A stretch of DNA of 64,000 nt from Bacteroidota bacterium (GCA_947453935.1 CANGJU010000002.1:754-64753), one strand, 5' to 3'; numbered from the stretch's first letter, positions 30,086-36,343 are shown. Notes: generated by a model not told the origin, from the letters alone. Numbers and translations: made by a program.

Positions 30086-30808
30086 ATGAAAAAATATTCC
30101 TTCCTCCTATTCTTTGTTACTTGCTTACTTTATGCATGCAGCAACGGACAAAACACTGGTAATTCTTTAATAGATCCAGCTACATTTAGCGAGAAACTAA
30201 AATCGACTCCCAACCTAACGCTGGTGGATGTCCGCACACCCGAAGAATATGCAGGAGGGCATTTACCAAACGCCATTAACATTGACTGGAACGGAGATCA
30301 ATTTAATGCCACAACAGAAAAACTAGACAAAAGCAAACCGGTATTTGTTTACTGCATGAGTGGCGGAAGAAGTCATAATGCAGCGCAGGACTTACAAAAG
30401 CGCGGCTTTAAAAGCGTAACGGAATTAAAAGGTGGAATATTAAAATGGAGAGCGGCAGGTTTACCAGAAGAAAATGGAACTACATCCAATACTGCTTCTG
30501 GTCTATCTGAAATGACCAAGATGGACATGGATAAAATGATCATTGAGAACAAGCTTATCATATTCGATTTCTTTGCTGAGTGGTGTGGGCCTTGTAAAAA
30601 GTTGAAACCTGAATTAGAAGCACTAGAAGCAGCGCACAAAGGTCAGGTGAAAGTAGTTCGCATCGACGTTGATAAAAACAAAGCCCTAGCCCGAGAACTA
30701 CAGATCACTGAAATCCCCATTATCATGATCTACAAAAACAAACAAATCCAATGGACTGGCACCGGCTATTTCCCGATGAAGGATATTGAGGCAAATTGCG
30801 GATTTTAG
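30086..30808 (+). CDS. Lipoprotein fusing a rhodanese domain to a thioredoxin domain
   Basis: 240 aa with lipobox LLYAC. Rhodanese active-site loop CMSGGRS and thioredoxin WCGPC. Confidence 0.85.
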   Translation: MKKYSFLLFFVTCLLYACSNGQNTGNSLIDPATFSEKLKSTPNLTLVDVRTPEEYAGGHLPNAINIDWNGDQFNATTEKLDKSKPVFVYCMSGGRSHNAAQDLQKRGFKSVTELKGGILKWRAAGLPEENGTTSNTASGLSEMTKMDMDKMIIENKLIIFDFFAEWCGPCKKLKPELEALEAAHKGQVKVVRIDVDKNKALARELQITEIPIIMIYKNKQIQWTGTGYFPMKDIEANCGF

Positions 30809-32944: not shown

Positions 32945-32993
32945 AATACCGAGCACAAGACGATTAAAAACTTAAATTACCCACGAATTTAAA

Positions 32994-33098
32994 ATCACTG
33001 AAATCTACATTATCATGCTCTACAAAAACAAACAAATCCAATAGACCGACAAAGGTTATTTTCCTTTGAAGGATATTGAGGTTAATTGTGGGTTTTAG
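32994..33098 (+). pseudogene. Displaced copy B of the 3' end of the rhodanese-thioredoxin gene
   Basis: Ungapped hand alignment to 30704..30808 gives 89/105 identical. Reads IIMLYKNKQIQ*TDKGYFPLKDIEVNCGF* (TGG to TAG). Confidence 0.75.
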
Positions 33099-33104
33099 GA
33101 AAAT

Positions 33105-34088
33105 TTATTTCGACAACTTATTAAAGCGTGTTTGATACGCTTGCCAATAATTTCTTTTCATTCGATCATTTAAAAAAGATGCGTTAATCATCGCTTCTAC
33201 TTTTTCAGATTTAGATAACATAAATGTGATGATAGTATCACATTGCTTTTCACTGATACCTGCTCTATTGCCCAACACTTGAAATTGTTTTTTAATTTTC
33301 CCTTGCGCTAATGAAGGGGGCAAAAGACCATCATCCAGCGCGAAATCTTTATCGGCTATATGCAAGCGCGTATTTAATAAATCGTAAGCAGGACTCAATC
33401 GATAATCGCCCATTGGAGTTTCAATCACAGAAAAATTTTTCAGATGTGCATCACCGTTAGAGAAGAGGTAATTGAACAATATTAACTTAAATAGTTTAGG
33501 TGCCTCCGACTTATAAGCAGGTAAATACTTTTTCATTATTTCAAATAAGTCAGCGTAATTGCCCAGGTATTTATAATGTGCTCCATGAATTTGTGGTGTT
33601 CTACCTGCCAGAGAAGCAAAATCATCTTGTGCCCATTTACTACCATCCTCTTTTACATCGAAACGTTTGGTGAGATAAGCTGGCTCGCCATTACTAAAAA
33701 ACACCAATGCATTTTCTGCAGTATCAATACCATAAACTTGCTGCGCTAATTGCATGGTGAGGTGTTCATTCGCGGGTAGTTGATCGGCATTTTTATTTAC
33801 CGCCGGAATAGGTTTTAATATATAAGCCCCTCTCTCACCTTCATGCGTTAATCGTAATTTATTTTTATCAAGTAGCACTATAAATTTCTCTTGTACACCT
33901 GAGATAGAAATATGCACTACATTATCTTCAAATTTTTCATTTTGCTTGCTGTTAGATTTAGGCGCAGCATAAGGCAACACATGACTTACCTTTCGCCCAT
34001 TAAACATCCGCTTCAAACAAGTACGACTGTACGTATCGAATCCGGGAGCTAAAGTGCCAGGACAATATTTTATTTTTGGTGAGGGCAT
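33105..34088 (-). CDS. hipT: HipA-family Ser/Thr kinase toxin lacking the N-subdomain (HipT-like)
   Basis: 327 aa. Gly-rich loop ISISGVQEKF, catalytic loop GDAHLKNFS, and PAYDLLNT. Confidence 0.85.
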   Translation of the reverse strand: MPSPKIKYCPGTLAPGFDTYSRTCLKRMFNGRKVSHVLPYAAPKSNSKQNEKFEDNVVHISISGVQEKFIVLLDKNKLRLTHEGERGAYILKPIPAVNKNADQLPANEHLTMQLAQQVYGIDTAENALVFFSNGEPAYLTKRFDVKEDGSKWAQDDFASLAGRTPQIHGAHYKYLGNYADLFEIMKKYLPAYKSEAPKLFKLILFNYLFSNGDAHLKNFSVIETPMGDYRLSPAYDLLNTRLHIADKDFALDDGLLPPSLAQGKIKKQFQVLGNRAGISEKQCDTIITFMLSKSEKVEAMINASFLNDRMKRNYWQAYQTRFNKLSK

Positions 34089-34091
34089 GAT

Positions 34092-34412
34092 TTAATTTTT
34101 AATTACGCGAACGGCACCAATTGTATCGTACGATGCGACAGCCAATAGCAAACTGAAATAATCATCCTTATCAATTTTATTTTTTCTGCAAACTGCCTGT
34201 TTGTTGGAACCCTCTGGCAGCATATTATAAAAAAATGGAAATAACTCCTTGGAATGATATTCATTAACAATTTTGGGAAGCGTTAAGCTAATAGCAGGCT
34301 TGCTGGTATCCGACATCCACGAAGAAAAATAAGTGAACGAAAAAGTACCATCATCGTGCTGCATTAATTTTCCAGCTTGCTGATCTTTGTACAAAACGAT
34401 TGCGCTTCTCAT
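34092..34412 (-). CDS. hipS: HipA N-terminal-subdomain protein (HipS-like)
   Basis: 106 aa. MRSAIVLYKDQQAGKL...DGTFSFTY is the HipA N-terminal coupling-domain pattern. Ends 3 nt before hipT, and has a 4-nt overlap with the HTH gene. Confidence 0.8.
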   Translation of the reverse strand: MRSAIVLYKDQQAGKLMQHDDGTFSFTYFSSWMSDTSKPAISLTLPKIVNEYHSKELFPFFYNMLPEGSNKQAVCRKNKIDKDDYFSLLLAVASYDTIGAVRVIKN

Positions 34413-34645
34413 TGATTAGGTATTAATGATTTTACTTGCAGCAATAATTCTAGTCCTAGTACATCTGCCAATTTTTCAATGGTGAGCAATGTAGGATTAC
34501 CTTTTCCGCTCTCCAATTGTTTAAGAGTTCGCAGTCCTACACCCGAGAGTTCGGCCAATGCTTCCTGCGTTAAATGTAGGACTTCGCGTCTTGCTTTTAG
34601 TTGTTGAATTAAATCAGCGTGGTGCATTATATGGCATTTTAGCAT
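34409..34645 (-). CDS. hipB: XRE-family helix-turn-helix protein (HipB-like)
   Basis: 78 aa. HTH region LTQEALAELSGVGLRTLKQLESGKGNPTL. An alternative ATG is at 34627. Confidence 0.85.
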   Translation of the reverse strand: MLKCHIMHHADLIQQLKARREVLHLTQEALAELSGVGLRTLKQLESGKGNPTLLTIEKLADVLGLELLLQVKSLIPNQ

Positions 34646-34806: not shown

Positions 34807-34904
34807 AAATCTCCCTCATCATGAACTACAAAAACAAGCAAATGTCATGGACAGGCACGGGATATATTCCGATGAAGTATTTAGAGGTGAATTGTGTGTT
34901 TTAG
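34807..34904 (+). pseudogene. Displaced copy C of the 3' end of the rhodanese-thioredoxin gene
   Basis: Ungapped hand alignment to 30711..30808 gives 77/98 identical. Reads ISLIMNYKNKQMSWTGTGYIPMKYLEVNCVF*, with no upstream coding body. Confidence 0.7.
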
Positions 34905-34974: not shown

Positions 34975-35250
34975 TTAAATGGATTTTCCTCTAATAAAAA
35001 CCATCATCACCCAAACCACCACCTGAGCAATCAGGATAATCGCAGAGTAAAACAAAACCGCAAGGGAGCCACCACCTTTAAAATTTTCCAGGTCGGTGAA
35101 AAGAAGGATGTTTAAGAAAAGTCCACCGAGCAATAGGGTTGTTTTTAAGATCCTTTGTGATTTATTTCTAATCAAACCAACAATTGCCATTAGATAAAAT
35201 ACAAAGTAACAGGCATACAAAACACTAAACTCATTATCGGTGGGCAGCAT
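34975..35250 (-). CDS. Small membrane protein with three hydrophobic helices
   Basis: 91 aa. The helices are VLYACYFVFYLMAIVGLI, TTLLLGGLFLNILLF and LAVLFYSAIILIAQVVVWVMMVF. Lies 22 nt downstream of the 53-aa ORF. Confidence 0.45.
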   Translation of the reverse strand: MLPTDNEFSVLYACYFVFYLMAIVGLIRNKSQRILKTTLLLGGLFLNILLFTDLENFKGGGSLAVLFYSAIILIAQVVVWVMMVFIRGKSI

Positions 35251-35272
35251 CGAAAAATGAAATTAAATGCGA

Positions 35273-35434
35273 CTAACCAACTTTTACTTTTGATTTACGA
35301 ATTATAGAAGATGGTCTAGATTTTTTCGCCTTTAATTTCTTTATAAATACACTTAATGCAATCTCCTCCTCCTTAGTTAGCGGTTTGGGATCAACAATAA
35401 TTTCTAAATCGTCTTTTATAGTCTTTTTTTTCAT
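35273..35434 (-). CDS. 53-aa charged protein (acidic N-half, Lys-rich tail), not in the ORF track
   Basis: My translation is MKKKTIKDDLEIIVDPKPLTKEEEIALSVFIKKLKAKKSRPSSIIRKSKVKVG*. Its ATG overlaps the TGA of the upstream 173-aa ORF (ATGA at 35431-35434). Confidence 0.4.
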   Translation of the reverse strand: MKKKTIKDDLEIIVDPKPLTKEEEIALSVFIKKLKAKKSRPSSIIRKSKVKVG

Positions 35435-35952
35435 GGATTGTATTTGTTTAATAAATGAAGTGAGGCTTTGGTATCTAAAATCAATAAATGACCACCGAAG
35501 TGAATTGCGCCTATCTTTTCAACGTAGTGCTTAATTAATACCGTTTTGGCTCTAAAGGAAACGAAGCCTTCTTTCCCATTTTGGAAAGATAATTTACATG
35601 CGTAGGCTATTAAATTACCCGCAACACCAAGATATACTTTATTCCTGCCAATATTAAAGGGGGCATTTTCAATTAAATGAATATACACGTTATCAGCAGT
35701 AATGGAAACACTAATTAGACCTTGGATAATTTCCGTGTTATTTACGATTGTTAATTTAAAAACATCCCGATCTGGATATAACAACTCCCCTTTCCAGTCG
35801 AATTTCCATCCATTCTTTTTTGCAATTCCCTTCAGATCAACTTTTGTTAAAGGCAATATACATGTTGGAAAGCTGTCTCCTGTAATGGCGTTTTCAATAG
35901 AGTTTGTTAATTTGTCTACCTGTATATCAATAAGAATGCTTCTGCTTTTCAC
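35431..35952 (-). CDS. Hypothetical 173-aa protein with a possible GNAT-like fold
   Basis: GTG start. The core IHLIENAPFNIGRNKVYLGVAGNLIAYACKLSF...GFVSFRAKTVLIKHY resembles an acyl-CoA N-acyltransferase beta4-alpha3 region. There is no clean Q/RxxGxG/A motif. Confidence 0.5.
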   Translation of the reverse strand: MKSRSILIDIQVDKLTNSIENAITGDSFPTCILPLTKVDLKGIAKKNGWKFDWKGELLYPDRDVFKLTIVNNTEIIQGLISVSITADNVYIHLIENAPFNIGRNKVYLGVAGNLIAYACKLSFQNGKEGFVSFRAKTVLIKHYVEKIGAIHFGGHLLILDTKASLHLLNKYNP

Positions 35953-36098
35953 ATAATAAAGATAAGGAATTCAATAGATTATTTTCAACGAAAAATTTCA
36001 TTTTTGATATTACGATGCATTTAACGTAGATTTTTATTTTCGAAGCAATTTTCGCCATAATACAAATCACTTTCGCGTGCACACTTCAACGTTGCATT

Positions 36099-36170
36099 TT
36101 CAAATCGCGATGCCCTTCGAGCCACCTTACCTCGACAAGCTCGGCACAAGCAGGGACCGCCTTGCGATCA
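36099..36170. repeat. GC-rich intergenic repeat element, long form
   Basis: Starts with TTCAAATCGCGATGCCCTTCGAG and contains CAGGGACCGC..GCGA.CAAA. The 23-nt head is identical to 36233-36255. Confidence 0.55.
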
Positions 36171-36232
36171 AAGTAGCCTAATGCGTATTTCTAAAATTCC
36201 AAATACTGACGGAAAAATCAACTCATTACATC

Positions 36233-36285
36233 TTCAAATCGCGATGCCCTTCGAGTCGCCTCAGGGACCGCGTCGCGAGCAAATC
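36233..36285. repeat. GC-rich intergenic repeat element, short form
   Basis: Has the same 23-nt head and the CAGGGACCGC core, but lacks the ~29-nt insert CCACCTTACCTCGACAAGCTCGGCACAAG. TCGCGA arms can pair. Confidence 0.55.
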
Positions 36286-36343
36286 AGCACATTATCAAAT
36301 TAACGTAAAGCGTGTTCCGAACCTTTGGAACTCTGCTTTGCGG

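What the first reader, a model, noticed from the sequence alone, without database searches (positions are those of the whole stretch)
34975..35952. Uncharacterised tight three-gene cassette: GNAT-like 173-aa protein, hidden 53-aa charged protein, 3-TM 91-aa protein
Three same-strand ORFs are tightly packed. The TGA of the 173-aa ORF overlaps the ATG of a 53-aa ORF that the ORF track misses (ATGA at 35431-35434). After 22 nt a 91-aa ORF with three hydrophobic helices follows. The 173-aa protein has a core reminiscent of the acyltransferase fold (IHLIENAPFNIGRNKVYLGVAGNLIAYACKLSF...GFVSFRAKT) but lacks a canonical acetyl-CoA motif. The 53-aa protein is acidic at the front and strongly basic at the end (KKLKAKKSRPSSIIRKSKVKVG). 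The cassette lies immediately right of the outermost displaced thioredoxin gene end and left of GC-rich repeat elements. It is therefore in the accessory segment next to a toxin-antitoxin system. An enzyme plus a small charged partner plus a small membrane protein resembles toxin-antitoxin or abortive-infection modules, including GNAT toxins that acetylate aminoacyl-tRNA. However, the gene order (enzyme first) and the third membrane gene fit no named system I know.
Basis: partly seen in the sequence, partly recalled or inferred. Interest (0 to 1): 0.6.

Follow-up and report, generated by a model that had tools for sequence, protein, structure and literature searches.

The report
Mobile GNAT-fold toxin-antidote gene pair
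Two of the three genes form a widespread, unannotated mobile pair (an acetyltransferase-fold enzyme plus a tiny partner) whose enzyme also occurs fused to phage head proteins of the "MuF toxin" type, so it is most likely a new toxin-antidote module; the third, membrane gene is only a resident neighbour.

Summary
The three ORFs are exactly as described: 173 aa, 53 aa with an ATGA overlap, then 91 aa with 3 TM helices after 22 nt. The conserved unit, however, is two genes.

- **The pair.** In all 51 stand-alone loci examined, the ~175-aa gene is followed at once by a ~50-80-aa gene (most 53-66 aa). Flanks are unrelated, and no third gene recurs.
- **The 3-TM gene is resident.** Four same-genus genomes and related contigs have LemA-TPM-TPM, then 3-TM, then a convergent thioredoxin gene, with no pair. 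In the window, about 824 bp (35251-36074) is inserted there.
- **The enzyme.** The 173-aa protein matches no Pfam, NCBIfam, PADLOC or PHROG model. It folds confidently (pLDDT 91) as a GNAT acyltransferase, and E95 and Y143 are near-invariant.
- **The phage link.** The same domain forms the C-terminus of phage MuF/minor-capsid proteins, each followed by its own small ORF. This is the MuF polymorphic-toxin/immunity layout.
- **A distant branch** pairs the enzyme with an Xre-HTH protein instead.
- **Accessory behaviour.** Distribution is patchy (20 of 300 phylum genomes), with 0-4 copies per genome. About a quarter of enzyme genes are broken, while the partner is intact in 13 of 13 such loci.

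Best reading: a toxin-antidote cassette with a GNAT-fold toxin (confidence about 0.6). Toxicity and target are untested.

The parts
35431..35952 (-). 173-aa divergent GNAT-fold acyltransferase-like protein, the proposed toxin/effector
   Evidence: ORF. No Pfam, NCBIfam, PADLOC or PHROG family. 4136 homologues and 1364 clusters at 50% identity. AF2 pLDDT 90.8 with GNAT topology. GNAT-only fold hits in the PDB. TM 0.85-0.87 to two phage 'minor capsid proteins'. E95, Y143, K136, N100 and the W49-F51-W53 motif are near-invariant over 109 diverse members.
35273..35434 (-). 53-aa partner, the proposed antidote (immunity/antitoxin). It is translationally coupled through an ATGA overlap and has an extended N-terminal segment, one helix and a disordered Lys-rich tail.
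   Evidence: Homologues follow every stand-alone enzyme gene. dN/dS is about 0.03-0.3. AF2 gives a helix at 21-38 (pLDDT about 96) and a low-confidence tail. The partner is intact in 13 of 13 loci where the enzyme gene is broken.
35251..36074 (.). About 824-bp segment present in the window but replaced by about 82 bp in the close relative L047. This is the inserted two-gene cassette with its own upstream region.
   Evidence: blastn of L047, L048, L044 and L046 against the window. Sequences read. Same-genus synteny.
34975..35250 (-). 91-aa 3-TM protein. It is a resident gene of the LemA-TPM-TPM neighbourhood and NOT part of the cassette. After the insertion it may be co-transcribed by accident.
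   Evidence: Only 11 homologues, 71-88% identical over the aligned part. It follows TPM directly and precedes the convergent Trx-rhodanese gene in L047, L044 and genomes G004, G007, G008 and G009, with no GNAT pair. It is absent from all other GNAT-pair loci.

Best explanation
The window carries a self-contained, horizontally mobile two-gene toxin-antidote cassette (35273-35952, minus strand).

Gene 1 encodes a divergent GNAT-fold acyl-CoA-dependent transferase. I infer that it uses invariant E95 (end of strand beta4) and Y143 (helix alpha4) as general base and acid. I also infer that it inhibits growth by acylating an essential target. The leading guess for the target is the amino group of charged tRNA, or a translation or other protein. 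That guess rests on analogy with the TacT/AtaT/KacT toxins and on the enzyme's basic pI.

Gene 2 overlaps gene 1 by 4 nt and so is made in step with it. It encodes a 53-aa neutraliser. I infer that its extended N-terminal segment plus amphipathic helix dock on the enzyme, while the disordered basic tail may make it labile or bind nucleic acid.

The same enzyme domain is used by phages as the C-terminal cargo of MuF/SPP1-gp7-type minor head proteins. These proteins are packaged in the virion, and each fusion gene is followed by its own small protective ORF. The chromosomal pair is the free-standing form of that effector/immunity unit.

Shown here: the fold, the conserved residues, the obligatory pairing, the phage fusions, the mobility, and the decay pattern. 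Inferred: toxicity, neutralisation by binding, and the substrate. The adjacent 3-TM gene is a resident neighbour next to which the cassette landed.
For: 1. GNAT fold. The AF2 model has pLDDT 90.8. All 47 PDB hits with E <= 0.001 are GNATs, among them AtaT, TacT3 and KacT.
2. Candidate catalytic residues are near-invariant over 109 diverse members: E95 108/108 and Y143 99/100.
3. All 51 stand-alone loci have a small ORF directly downstream, overlapping or a few nt away.
4. At least ten 50%-identity cluster representatives are C-terminal fusions to Phage_Mu_F or Phage_min_cap2, or to SNF2.
5. Ten IMG/VR loci and Fusobacterium phage phiPaco show terminase-portal-MuF::GNAT followed by an overlapping 58-62-aa ORF. 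The BFVD fold hits agree.
6. MuF C-terminal domains with a small downstream ORF are the described MuF polymorphic toxin/immunity layout (PMC5576092). This layout has been shown experimentally for Bxa and cited for Apk2 (PMC11699363).
7. Partner swapping. The stand-alone partners (A2) and the phage partners (A3) are not detectably homologous (hhalign probability 3.8%). A distant branch has a 165-aa Xre HTH_3 protein downstream instead.
8. Accessory behaviour. The family is in 16 of 61 relatives, 3 of 12 same-genus genomes and 20 of 300 phylum genomes, with 0-4 copies per genome. There are two copies in the window's own genome. Between loci, homology stops at the cassette edges. 115 neighbouring ORFs hit 117 Pfam families, none shared by more than three of the 115 ORFs.
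9. Decay pattern. 13 of 51 enzyme genes are broken by stops, frameshifts or truncations, yet 13 of 13 keep an intact partner. No locus has an intact enzyme with a broken partner. Neutral expectation from gene size is about 0.74^13 = 0.02.
10. The cassette is an indel relative to close relatives.
Against: - There is no experimental evidence for toxicity, neutralisation or acetyl-CoA use.
- The canonical Q/R-x-x-G-x-G/A CoA motif is replaced by Y-x-G-V-(P/A)-G-N-L after an unusually long beta4-alpha3 loop. No GNAT profile matches by sequence.
- Fold similarity to the known GNAT toxins (TM 0.53-0.56) is no better than to SpeG or RimI, so the target cannot be inferred.
- The partner has no recognisable DNA-binding domain and is basic overall, unlike many antitoxins.
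- MuF and polyvalent-protein cargo domains may be anti-defence or host-takeover effectors rather than toxins (PMC5512222).
- Some disruptions lie in nanopore-derived MAGs and could be assembly errors. The decay statistic is modest (p about 0.02).
- No complex model could be computed.
Confidence: 0.6

Rival explanations
1. The pair is a non-toxic effector plus helper. On this reading the GNAT-fold enzyme modifies a phage or host component, for example to block or trigger defence, or to modify a small molecule or antibiotic. The small protein would be a specificity adaptor, chaperone or regulator rather than an antidote. Chromosomal copies would be domesticated or remnant phage genes.
For: GNAT domains in virion-delivered polyvalent proteins have been proposed to modify host proteins during invasion (PMC5512222). 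Fold hits include many non-toxic GNATs such as SpeG, RimI and PaiA. One stand-alone pair lies on an IMG/VR viral contig (L028). The neighbours are mostly housekeeping genes rather than defence islands.
Against: A helper or adaptor does not explain why the partner stays intact and under purifying selection in 13 of 13 loci where the enzyme is broken. It also does not explain why three unrelated partner types, one an Xre-HTH protein, occupy the same downstream slot. Most chromosomal copies lie between housekeeping genes with no phage genes nearby.
Confidence: 0.22
2. The small protein is the enzyme's substrate rather than its inhibitor. The GNAT would acetylate lysines in the Lys-rich tail, or the N-terminus, of the 53-aa protein to switch its activity. 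The pair would then be a self-contained regulatory unit.
For: The Lys/Ser/Thr/Pro-rich tail is a consistent feature of the stand-alone partners. The enzyme and its partner are always co-encoded.
Against: The tail is the least conserved part of the partner; the conserved part is the N-terminal 40 residues. The phage partners (A3) are acidic to neutral and have no Lys-rich tail. The HTH-type partner of the distant branch does not fit either. Retention of the partner without the enzyme argues that it functions on its own, as an anti-toxin would.
Confidence: 0.06
3. This is the first reader's version: a three-gene system in which the 3-TM protein is a functional third component, for example a membrane effector or sensor.
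For: The 3-TM gene starts only 22 nt after the partner's stop on the same strand. It is therefore probably co-transcribed in this genome.
Against: The 3-TM gene has only 11 homologues, all from one narrow lineage. In six relatives' loci it occupies the same place after LemA-TPM-TPM without the GNAT pair. It is absent from all 50 other stand-alone GNAT-pair loci and from the phage loci.
Confidence: 0.03

Closest known systems
MuF polymorphic toxins of temperate phages with downstream immunity ORFs (Jamet et al. 2017, PMC5576092; Bxa/Bsi and Apk2, PMC11699363)
   Same: Homologues of the 173-aa protein form the C-terminal domain of Phage_Mu_F / Phage_min_cap2 minor head proteins encoded after terminase and portal. 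Each is followed by an overlapping 58-62-aa ORF. The toxin-then-antidote gene order matches the window.
   Different: The window's gene has no MuF domain and is not in a prophage. A GNAT-fold C-terminal domain is not among the toxin domains listed in that work, where 'GNAT' and 'acetyltransferase' each occur 0 times. The stand-alone partner family is not detectably homologous to the phage partner family.
GNAT-RHH type II toxin-antitoxin systems (TacAT, AtaRT, KacAT, ItaRT)
   Same: Both have a GNAT-fold enzyme of about 175 aa in a tight two-gene operon with a small neutralising protein. AtaT, TacT3 and KacT are among the fold hits. An invariant Tyr lies in helix alpha4, where these toxins carry their catalytic Tyr; that position is from my own knowledge. 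The enzyme is basic.
   Different: There is no sequence similarity and no Acetyltransf Pfam hit. The partner lies downstream rather than upstream. It has 53 aa and no RHH/DUF1778 DNA-binding domain. The enzyme has a distinctive conserved N-terminal extension and a W-x-F-x-W motif. The target is unknown.
GNAT domains of phage/plasmid polyvalent proteins, with solo versions (Iyer et al. 2017, PMC5512222)
   Same: The concept matches: GNAT domains embedded in virion-delivered multidomain proteins (MuF, SNF2) with free-standing relatives. One family representative here is fused to an SNF2-related domain.
   Different: The two families described there are in gammaproteobacterial prophages next to ART domains, or in T4SS elements of Firmicutes, Actinobacteria and Proteobacteria. 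This family is mainly Bacteroidota plus phages of Fusobacterium and unknown hosts. Identity with either described family could not be tested.
Toxin-first type II TA systems with Xre-HTH antitoxins (HigBA, MqsRA)
   Same: The distant branch of the family (L075, L076) has the enzyme followed by a 165-aa HTH_3 protein. That protein has a weak MqsA_antitoxin match.
   Different: The toxin fold is unrelated to the RelE or MqsR folds. The window's own partner has no HTH.

Membership tests
GNAT (GCN5-related N-acyltransferase) superfamily | Mixed alpha/beta fold with beta1-alpha1-alpha2-beta2-beta3-beta4-alpha3-beta5-alpha4-beta6 topology | tested here: met
   The AF2 model has pLDDT 90.8 with this order of elements. 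Foldseek gives 47 PDB hits at E <= 0.001, all GNATs, with best E 3e-6 and TM 0.52-0.60.
GNAT (GCN5-related N-acyltransferase) superfamily | Pyrophosphate-binding motif Q/R-x-x-G-x-G/A at the beta4-alpha3 junction, and a sequence-profile match | tested here: inconclusive
   No Pfam or NCBIfam acetyltransferase profile matches even at E <= 1. No PDB sequence matches either. A variant Y-x-G109-V-(P/A)-G112-N-L lies at the N-terminus of alpha3 and is highly conserved. It is not the canonical motif.
GNAT (GCN5-related N-acyltransferase) superfamily | Acyl-CoA-dependent transferase activity | not testable with these tools
   This needs biochemistry. The conserved E95 and Y143 are compatible with it.
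GNAT-RHH type II TA (TacAT/AtaRT/KacAT) | Upstream antitoxin with an RHH (DUF1778) DNA-binding domain | tested here: not met
   The partner lies downstream and has 53 aa. No Pfam or NCBIfam family was found. The model shows one helix and no RHH.
GNAT-RHH type II TA (TacAT/AtaRT/KacAT) | Toxin acetylates aminoacyl-tRNA | not testable with these tools
   Only fold-level similarity is available (TM 0.53-0.56), plus a basic pI.
MuF polymorphic toxin system | N-terminal MuF (PF04233/PF06152) head-protein domain carrying the C-terminal toxin domain, encoded in a (pro)phage head module | tested here: not met
   The window protein is the domain alone. Its neighbours are HipBST and LemA-TPM, not phage genes. 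The feature is met by homologues: P0205, P0227, P0232, P0235, P0255, P0256, P0261, P0268 and P0269, phiPaco and L030-L039.
MuF polymorphic toxin system | A small ORF immediately downstream as putative immunity | tested here: met
   The window has a 53-aa ORF with a 4-nt overlap. Phage homologues have 58-62-aa ORFs that overlap the fusion gene.
Type II toxin-antitoxin module (generic) | Compact bicistronic unit, mobile and patchily distributed, often multi-copy | tested here: met
Type II toxin-antitoxin module (generic) | Toxin arrests growth, and the antitoxin neutralises it by direct binding | not testable with these tools
   Only indirect evidence exists: 13 of 13 broken-enzyme loci keep the partner, and 0 of 38 intact-enzyme loci lack it.

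The most novel reading that the evidence does not exclude
This would be a previously undescribed and very large family of acyltransferase toxins (over 4000 proteins; 1364 clusters at 50% identity). It has its own fold embellishments: a conserved N-terminal hairpin-helix and a W-x-F-x-W motif. The family would shuttle between two lifestyles. One is virion-packaged cargo on phage MuF head proteins, injected into the next host. The other is free-standing chromosomal toxin-antidote cassettes in Bacteroidota. It would be neutralised by at least three unrelated antidote types, and it might hit a target different from the aminoacyl-tRNA attacked by TacT- and AtaT-type toxins.
Probability: 0.4. Interest if true: 0.7.

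Novelty: new variant of a known kind. Interest (0 to 1): 0.5.

Why it matters
If confirmed, this would give a function to a large, entirely unannotated protein family that is common in environmental Bacteroidota and in some phages. It would add an acyltransferase to the catalogue of MuF phage-delivered toxin domains. It would also provide a clean example of one toxin domain exchanged between virion cargo and chromosomal toxin-antitoxin cassettes, with interchangeable antidotes. Practically, it supplies a defined two-gene unit, two candidate catalytic residues to mutate, and a small peptide-like inhibitor to study. It also corrects the locus annotation: the 3-TM gene belongs with the LemA-TPM neighbourhood, not with the cassette.

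Tried and rejected
- **Profile searches.** I searched all three proteins against Pfam, NCBIfam and PADLOC, and the 173-aa and 53-aa proteins against PHROGs. Nothing significant came back.
- **PDB sequence search.** A profile of the enzyme family found no GNAT by sequence.
- **Partner homology.** hhalign between the stand-alone (A2) and phage (A3) partner families gave probability 3.8%. A joint MAFFT alignment suggests a shared '(D/E)-D-hydrophobic ... P ... helix ... K' pattern. I do not count this as homology.
- **Three-gene unit.** Rejected by synteny.
- **Defence-island enrichment.** 115 nearest neighbours gave 117 Pfam families with no recurrent one and only scattered PADLOC hits. I drop this as an argument.
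- **Sigma-70 promoter and terminator scan.** Results were at the shuffle expectation and uninformative for Bacteroidota.
- **Insertion scars.** A search for flanking target duplications found only a perfect 12-nt inverted repeat bracketing the cassette (35253-35264 and 35994-36005). That is about what chance gives in this AT-rich DNA, and it is not conserved in other loci.
- **Complex model.** An enzyme-partner complex model was not possible, because only single chains can be submitted.
- **Literature.** No paper describing this family was found.

Full report
**Observation.**
- 35952..35431 encodes 173 aa from a GTG start.
- 35434..35273 encodes 53 aa. Its ATG lies inside the ATGA at 35431-35434, a 4-nt overlap with the first gene.
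- 35250..34975 encodes 91 aa with three hydrophobic segments, after a 22-nt gap.

None of the three proteins matches a Pfam, NCBIfam or PADLOC model at a meaningful level. The first two also match no PHROG.

**The conserved unit is two genes, not three.** The 173-aa protein belongs to a very large unannotated family. It has 4136 homologues in the 5.8-billion-protein set and 1364 representatives at 50% identity. I examined 51 distinct stand-alone loci:
- 26 species genomes;
- metagenome contigs;
- one viral contig;
- a second copy in the window's own genome on contig C114;
- relatives' genomes.

In every one, the ~175-aa gene is followed immediately by a ~50-80-aa ORF (most are 53-66 aa), either overlapping by 4 nt or a few nt away. 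These ORFs share the pattern 'EPxGVDFxVxP..LT..(D/E)...IS..I..YK' followed by a variable Lys/Ser/Thr-rich tail. The small gene is under purifying selection, with dN/dS about 0.03-0.3. DNA similarity between loci stops at the cassette edges, at window 35964..35321. The two nearest ORFs on each side in 35 loci, 115 ORFs in all, hit 117 different Pfam families. None is shared by more than three of them. PADLOC hits among them are scattered. So there is no conserved third gene, and the pair is not tied to defence islands.

**The 3-TM gene is a resident neighbour.**
- It has only 11 homologues, all 71-88% identical over the aligned part.
- In contig L047, which is about 89% identical to the window, the order is TrmB-LemA-TPM-TPM, a short spacer, the 3-TM gene, then the convergent rhodanese-thioredoxin gene.
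- blastn shows that window 36074..35251 (about 824 bp, the GNAT gene plus the small gene and their upstream region) replaces about 82 bp of spacer in L047.
- The same pair-free arrangement holds in four same-genus genomes (G004, G007, G008, G009) and in L044-L046.
- The HipBST-like operon and the TonB receptor are likewise absent there.

**What the enzyme is.** With a 30-sequence alignment, AlphaFold2 gives a confident model: pLDDT 90.8 and pTM 0.88. It has the GNAT order of strands and helices plus an N-terminal beta-hairpin. All 47 PDB fold matches with E <= 0.001 are GNAT acyltransferases. The best is Coxiella CBU0801 (E 3e-6), followed by RimI, SpeG and PaiA. The tRNA-acetylating toxins AtaT, TacT3 and KacT also appear, at TM 0.53-0.56. 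Over 109 diverse members, including phage fusions and a distant branch, several residues are almost invariant:
- E95 at the end of beta4, 108/108;
- Y143 in alpha4, 99/100;
- K136, N100 and G129;
- the W49-x-F51-x-W53 motif.

From general knowledge of GNAT enzymes, E95 and Y143 sit where GNATs place their general base and acid. The canonical Q/R-x-x-G-x-G/A motif is replaced by Y-x-G-V-(P/A)-G-N-L after a long beta4-alpha3 loop. This explains why sequence profiles miss the family.

**The phage connection.** Among the family representatives, P0205, P0227, P0232, P0235, P0255, P0256, P0261, P0268 and P0269 carry the domain at the C-terminus of Phage_Mu_F or Phage_min_cap2 minor head proteins. 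P0219 carries it after an SNF2-related domain.
- In Fusobacterium phage phiPaco the gene order is terminase small, terminase large, portal, then a 524-aa 'minor head protein' whose last ~170 residues are this domain. A 58-aa ORF follows and overlaps it by 4 nt.
- Ten IMG/VR loci show the same fusion of 419-566 aa, where complete, followed by an overlapping 58-62-aa ORF.
- The best BFVD fold matches are two 'minor capsid proteins' at TM 0.85-0.87.

This is the architecture of MuF polymorphic toxins with downstream immunity ORFs (PMC5576092). That architecture has been shown experimentally for the ADP-ribosyltransferase Bxa, which is neutralised by Bsi, and is cited for Apk2 (PMC11699363). A GNAT domain is not among the toxin domains listed there. 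GNAT domains in virion-delivered polyvalent proteins, with solo versions, were noted by Iyer et al. (PMC5512222), but in other taxa.

**Signs of a toxin-antidote relationship.**
1. *Partner swapping.* The stand-alone partners (A2) and the phage partners (A3) are not detectably homologous (hhalign probability 3.8%). A joint alignment hints at a shared N-terminal pattern. A distant branch of the enzyme family (L075, L076) has a 165-aa Xre-type HTH_3 protein in the downstream slot. That protein scores 29.4 bits against a cut-off of 23 and has a weak MqsA_antitoxin match.
2. *Patchy, multi-copy distribution.* The family is in 16 of 61 relatives and 3 of 12 genomes of the same genus, with 0-4 copies per genome. 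It is in 20 of 300 evenly sampled high-quality genomes of the phylum, spread over 18 of 143 genera.
3. *Decay pattern.* 13 of the 51 enzyme genes are broken by in-frame stops, frameshifts or truncations. All 13 keep a full-length partner, and no locus has an intact enzyme with a broken partner. By gene size alone the chance is about 0.74^13 = 0.02. Some frameshifts in nanopore-derived MAGs may be errors, but seven cases are stop codons or truncations in other assemblies.
4. *Partner shape.* The partner is predicted as an extended segment, one confident helix (residues 21-38, pLDDT about 96) and a disordered basic tail. This is the shape of a peptide that folds on its target.
5. *Enzyme charge.* The enzyme is basic (median pI 9.2).

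**Mechanism proposed.** The pair is a mobile toxin-antidote cassette. The GNAT-fold enzyme would use an acyl-CoA to modify an essential target. The best guess is charged tRNA or a component of translation, but this rests on analogy only, because fold similarity does not discriminate among GNAT classes. The coupled small protein would bind and block the enzyme. Phages use the same enzyme as head-packaged cargo on MuF and protect the producing cell with their own small ORF. I put the toxin-antidote reading at about 0.6. The rivals are:
- a non-toxic effector plus helper, about 0.22;
- the partner as substrate, about 0.06;
- a true three-gene system, about 0.03.

**Novelty and verdict.** The kinds are known: GNAT toxins in type II TA systems, and MuF toxin/immunity pairs. 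This family differs from them in several ways:
- it has no sequence relation to the known GNAT toxins;
- its antidotes differ, and the antidote lies downstream rather than upstream;
- it has a distinctive N-terminal embellishment;
- it bridges the phage-cargo and chromosomal lifestyles.

I found no description of it in the searchable literature. I rate it a new variant of a known kind, of moderate interest (0.5). Toxicity, binding and target all remain to be shown.

Noticed in passing
window 33105-34645 (minus strand): A tripartite HipBST-like operon: an Xre HTH protein (78 aa), a HipA N-terminal-domain-only protein (106 aa, Couple_hipA) and a HipA_C kinase core (327 aa). It is absent from the same position in same-genus genomes and in L047, so it is an inserted cassette like the GNAT pair.
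   Followed up: partly
window 32977-33099 and about 34816-34904, versus the gene end at 30312-30808: Extra copies of the 3' end of the rhodanese-thioredoxin gene lie downstream of the inserted TonB-receptor and HipBST cassettes. The same stretch of L047 (4314-4436) matches the window at several places. In relatives the thioredoxin gene converges directly on the 3-TM gene.
   Followed up: partly
window 36092-36127 / 36226-36261 and 36151-36177 / 36262-36288: Two copies of a GC-rich repeat lie between the TPM gene and the GNAT cassette. L047 and L044-L046 carry related copies at the same place, so the repeats are resident and pre-date the cassette. The insertion begins right after the second copy.
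   Followed up: partly
window 35253-35264 and 35994-36005: A perfect 12-nt inverted repeat (AAAAATGAAATT / AATTTCATTTTT) brackets the GNAT + small pair almost exactly. About one such match is expected by chance in this AT-rich stretch, and it lies outside the part conserved between loci.
   Followed up: no
own genome contig C114 (locus L043, 1168-1891): A second, 52%-identical copy of the pair (175 aa plus about 61 aa) lies between a TonB-dependent receptor-like barrel gene and a convergent gene of 360+ aa. There is no 3-TM gene.
   Followed up: yes
L075:950-1998 and L076:455-1504: A distant branch of the enzyme family (168-169 aa) lacks the first ~35 residues. It is followed after about 40 nt by a 165-aa protein with an Xre-type HTH_3 domain, a different candidate antitoxin for the same enzyme fold.
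   Followed up: partly
protein P0219 (332 aa; representative library): The GNAT-like domain (residues 162-331) is preceded by an SNF2-related helicase fragment. This suggests membership of a larger polyvalent phage or plasmid protein.
   Followed up: no
L044-L046 (relatives of the window locus): In these contigs an IS30-type transposase gene (HTH_38 + rve) follows the 3-TM gene where the window has HipBST. This is further evidence that the spot is a recombination or insertion hotspot.
   Followed up: no
L078 (G009:C29), the 3-TM homologue: The same-genus 3-TM homologue carries an in-frame TAA. About 630 nt separate it from the TPM gene, against about 245 nt in L080. I did not examine what fills the gap; it contains no GNAT or small-partner remnant detectable by tblastn.
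   Followed up: no
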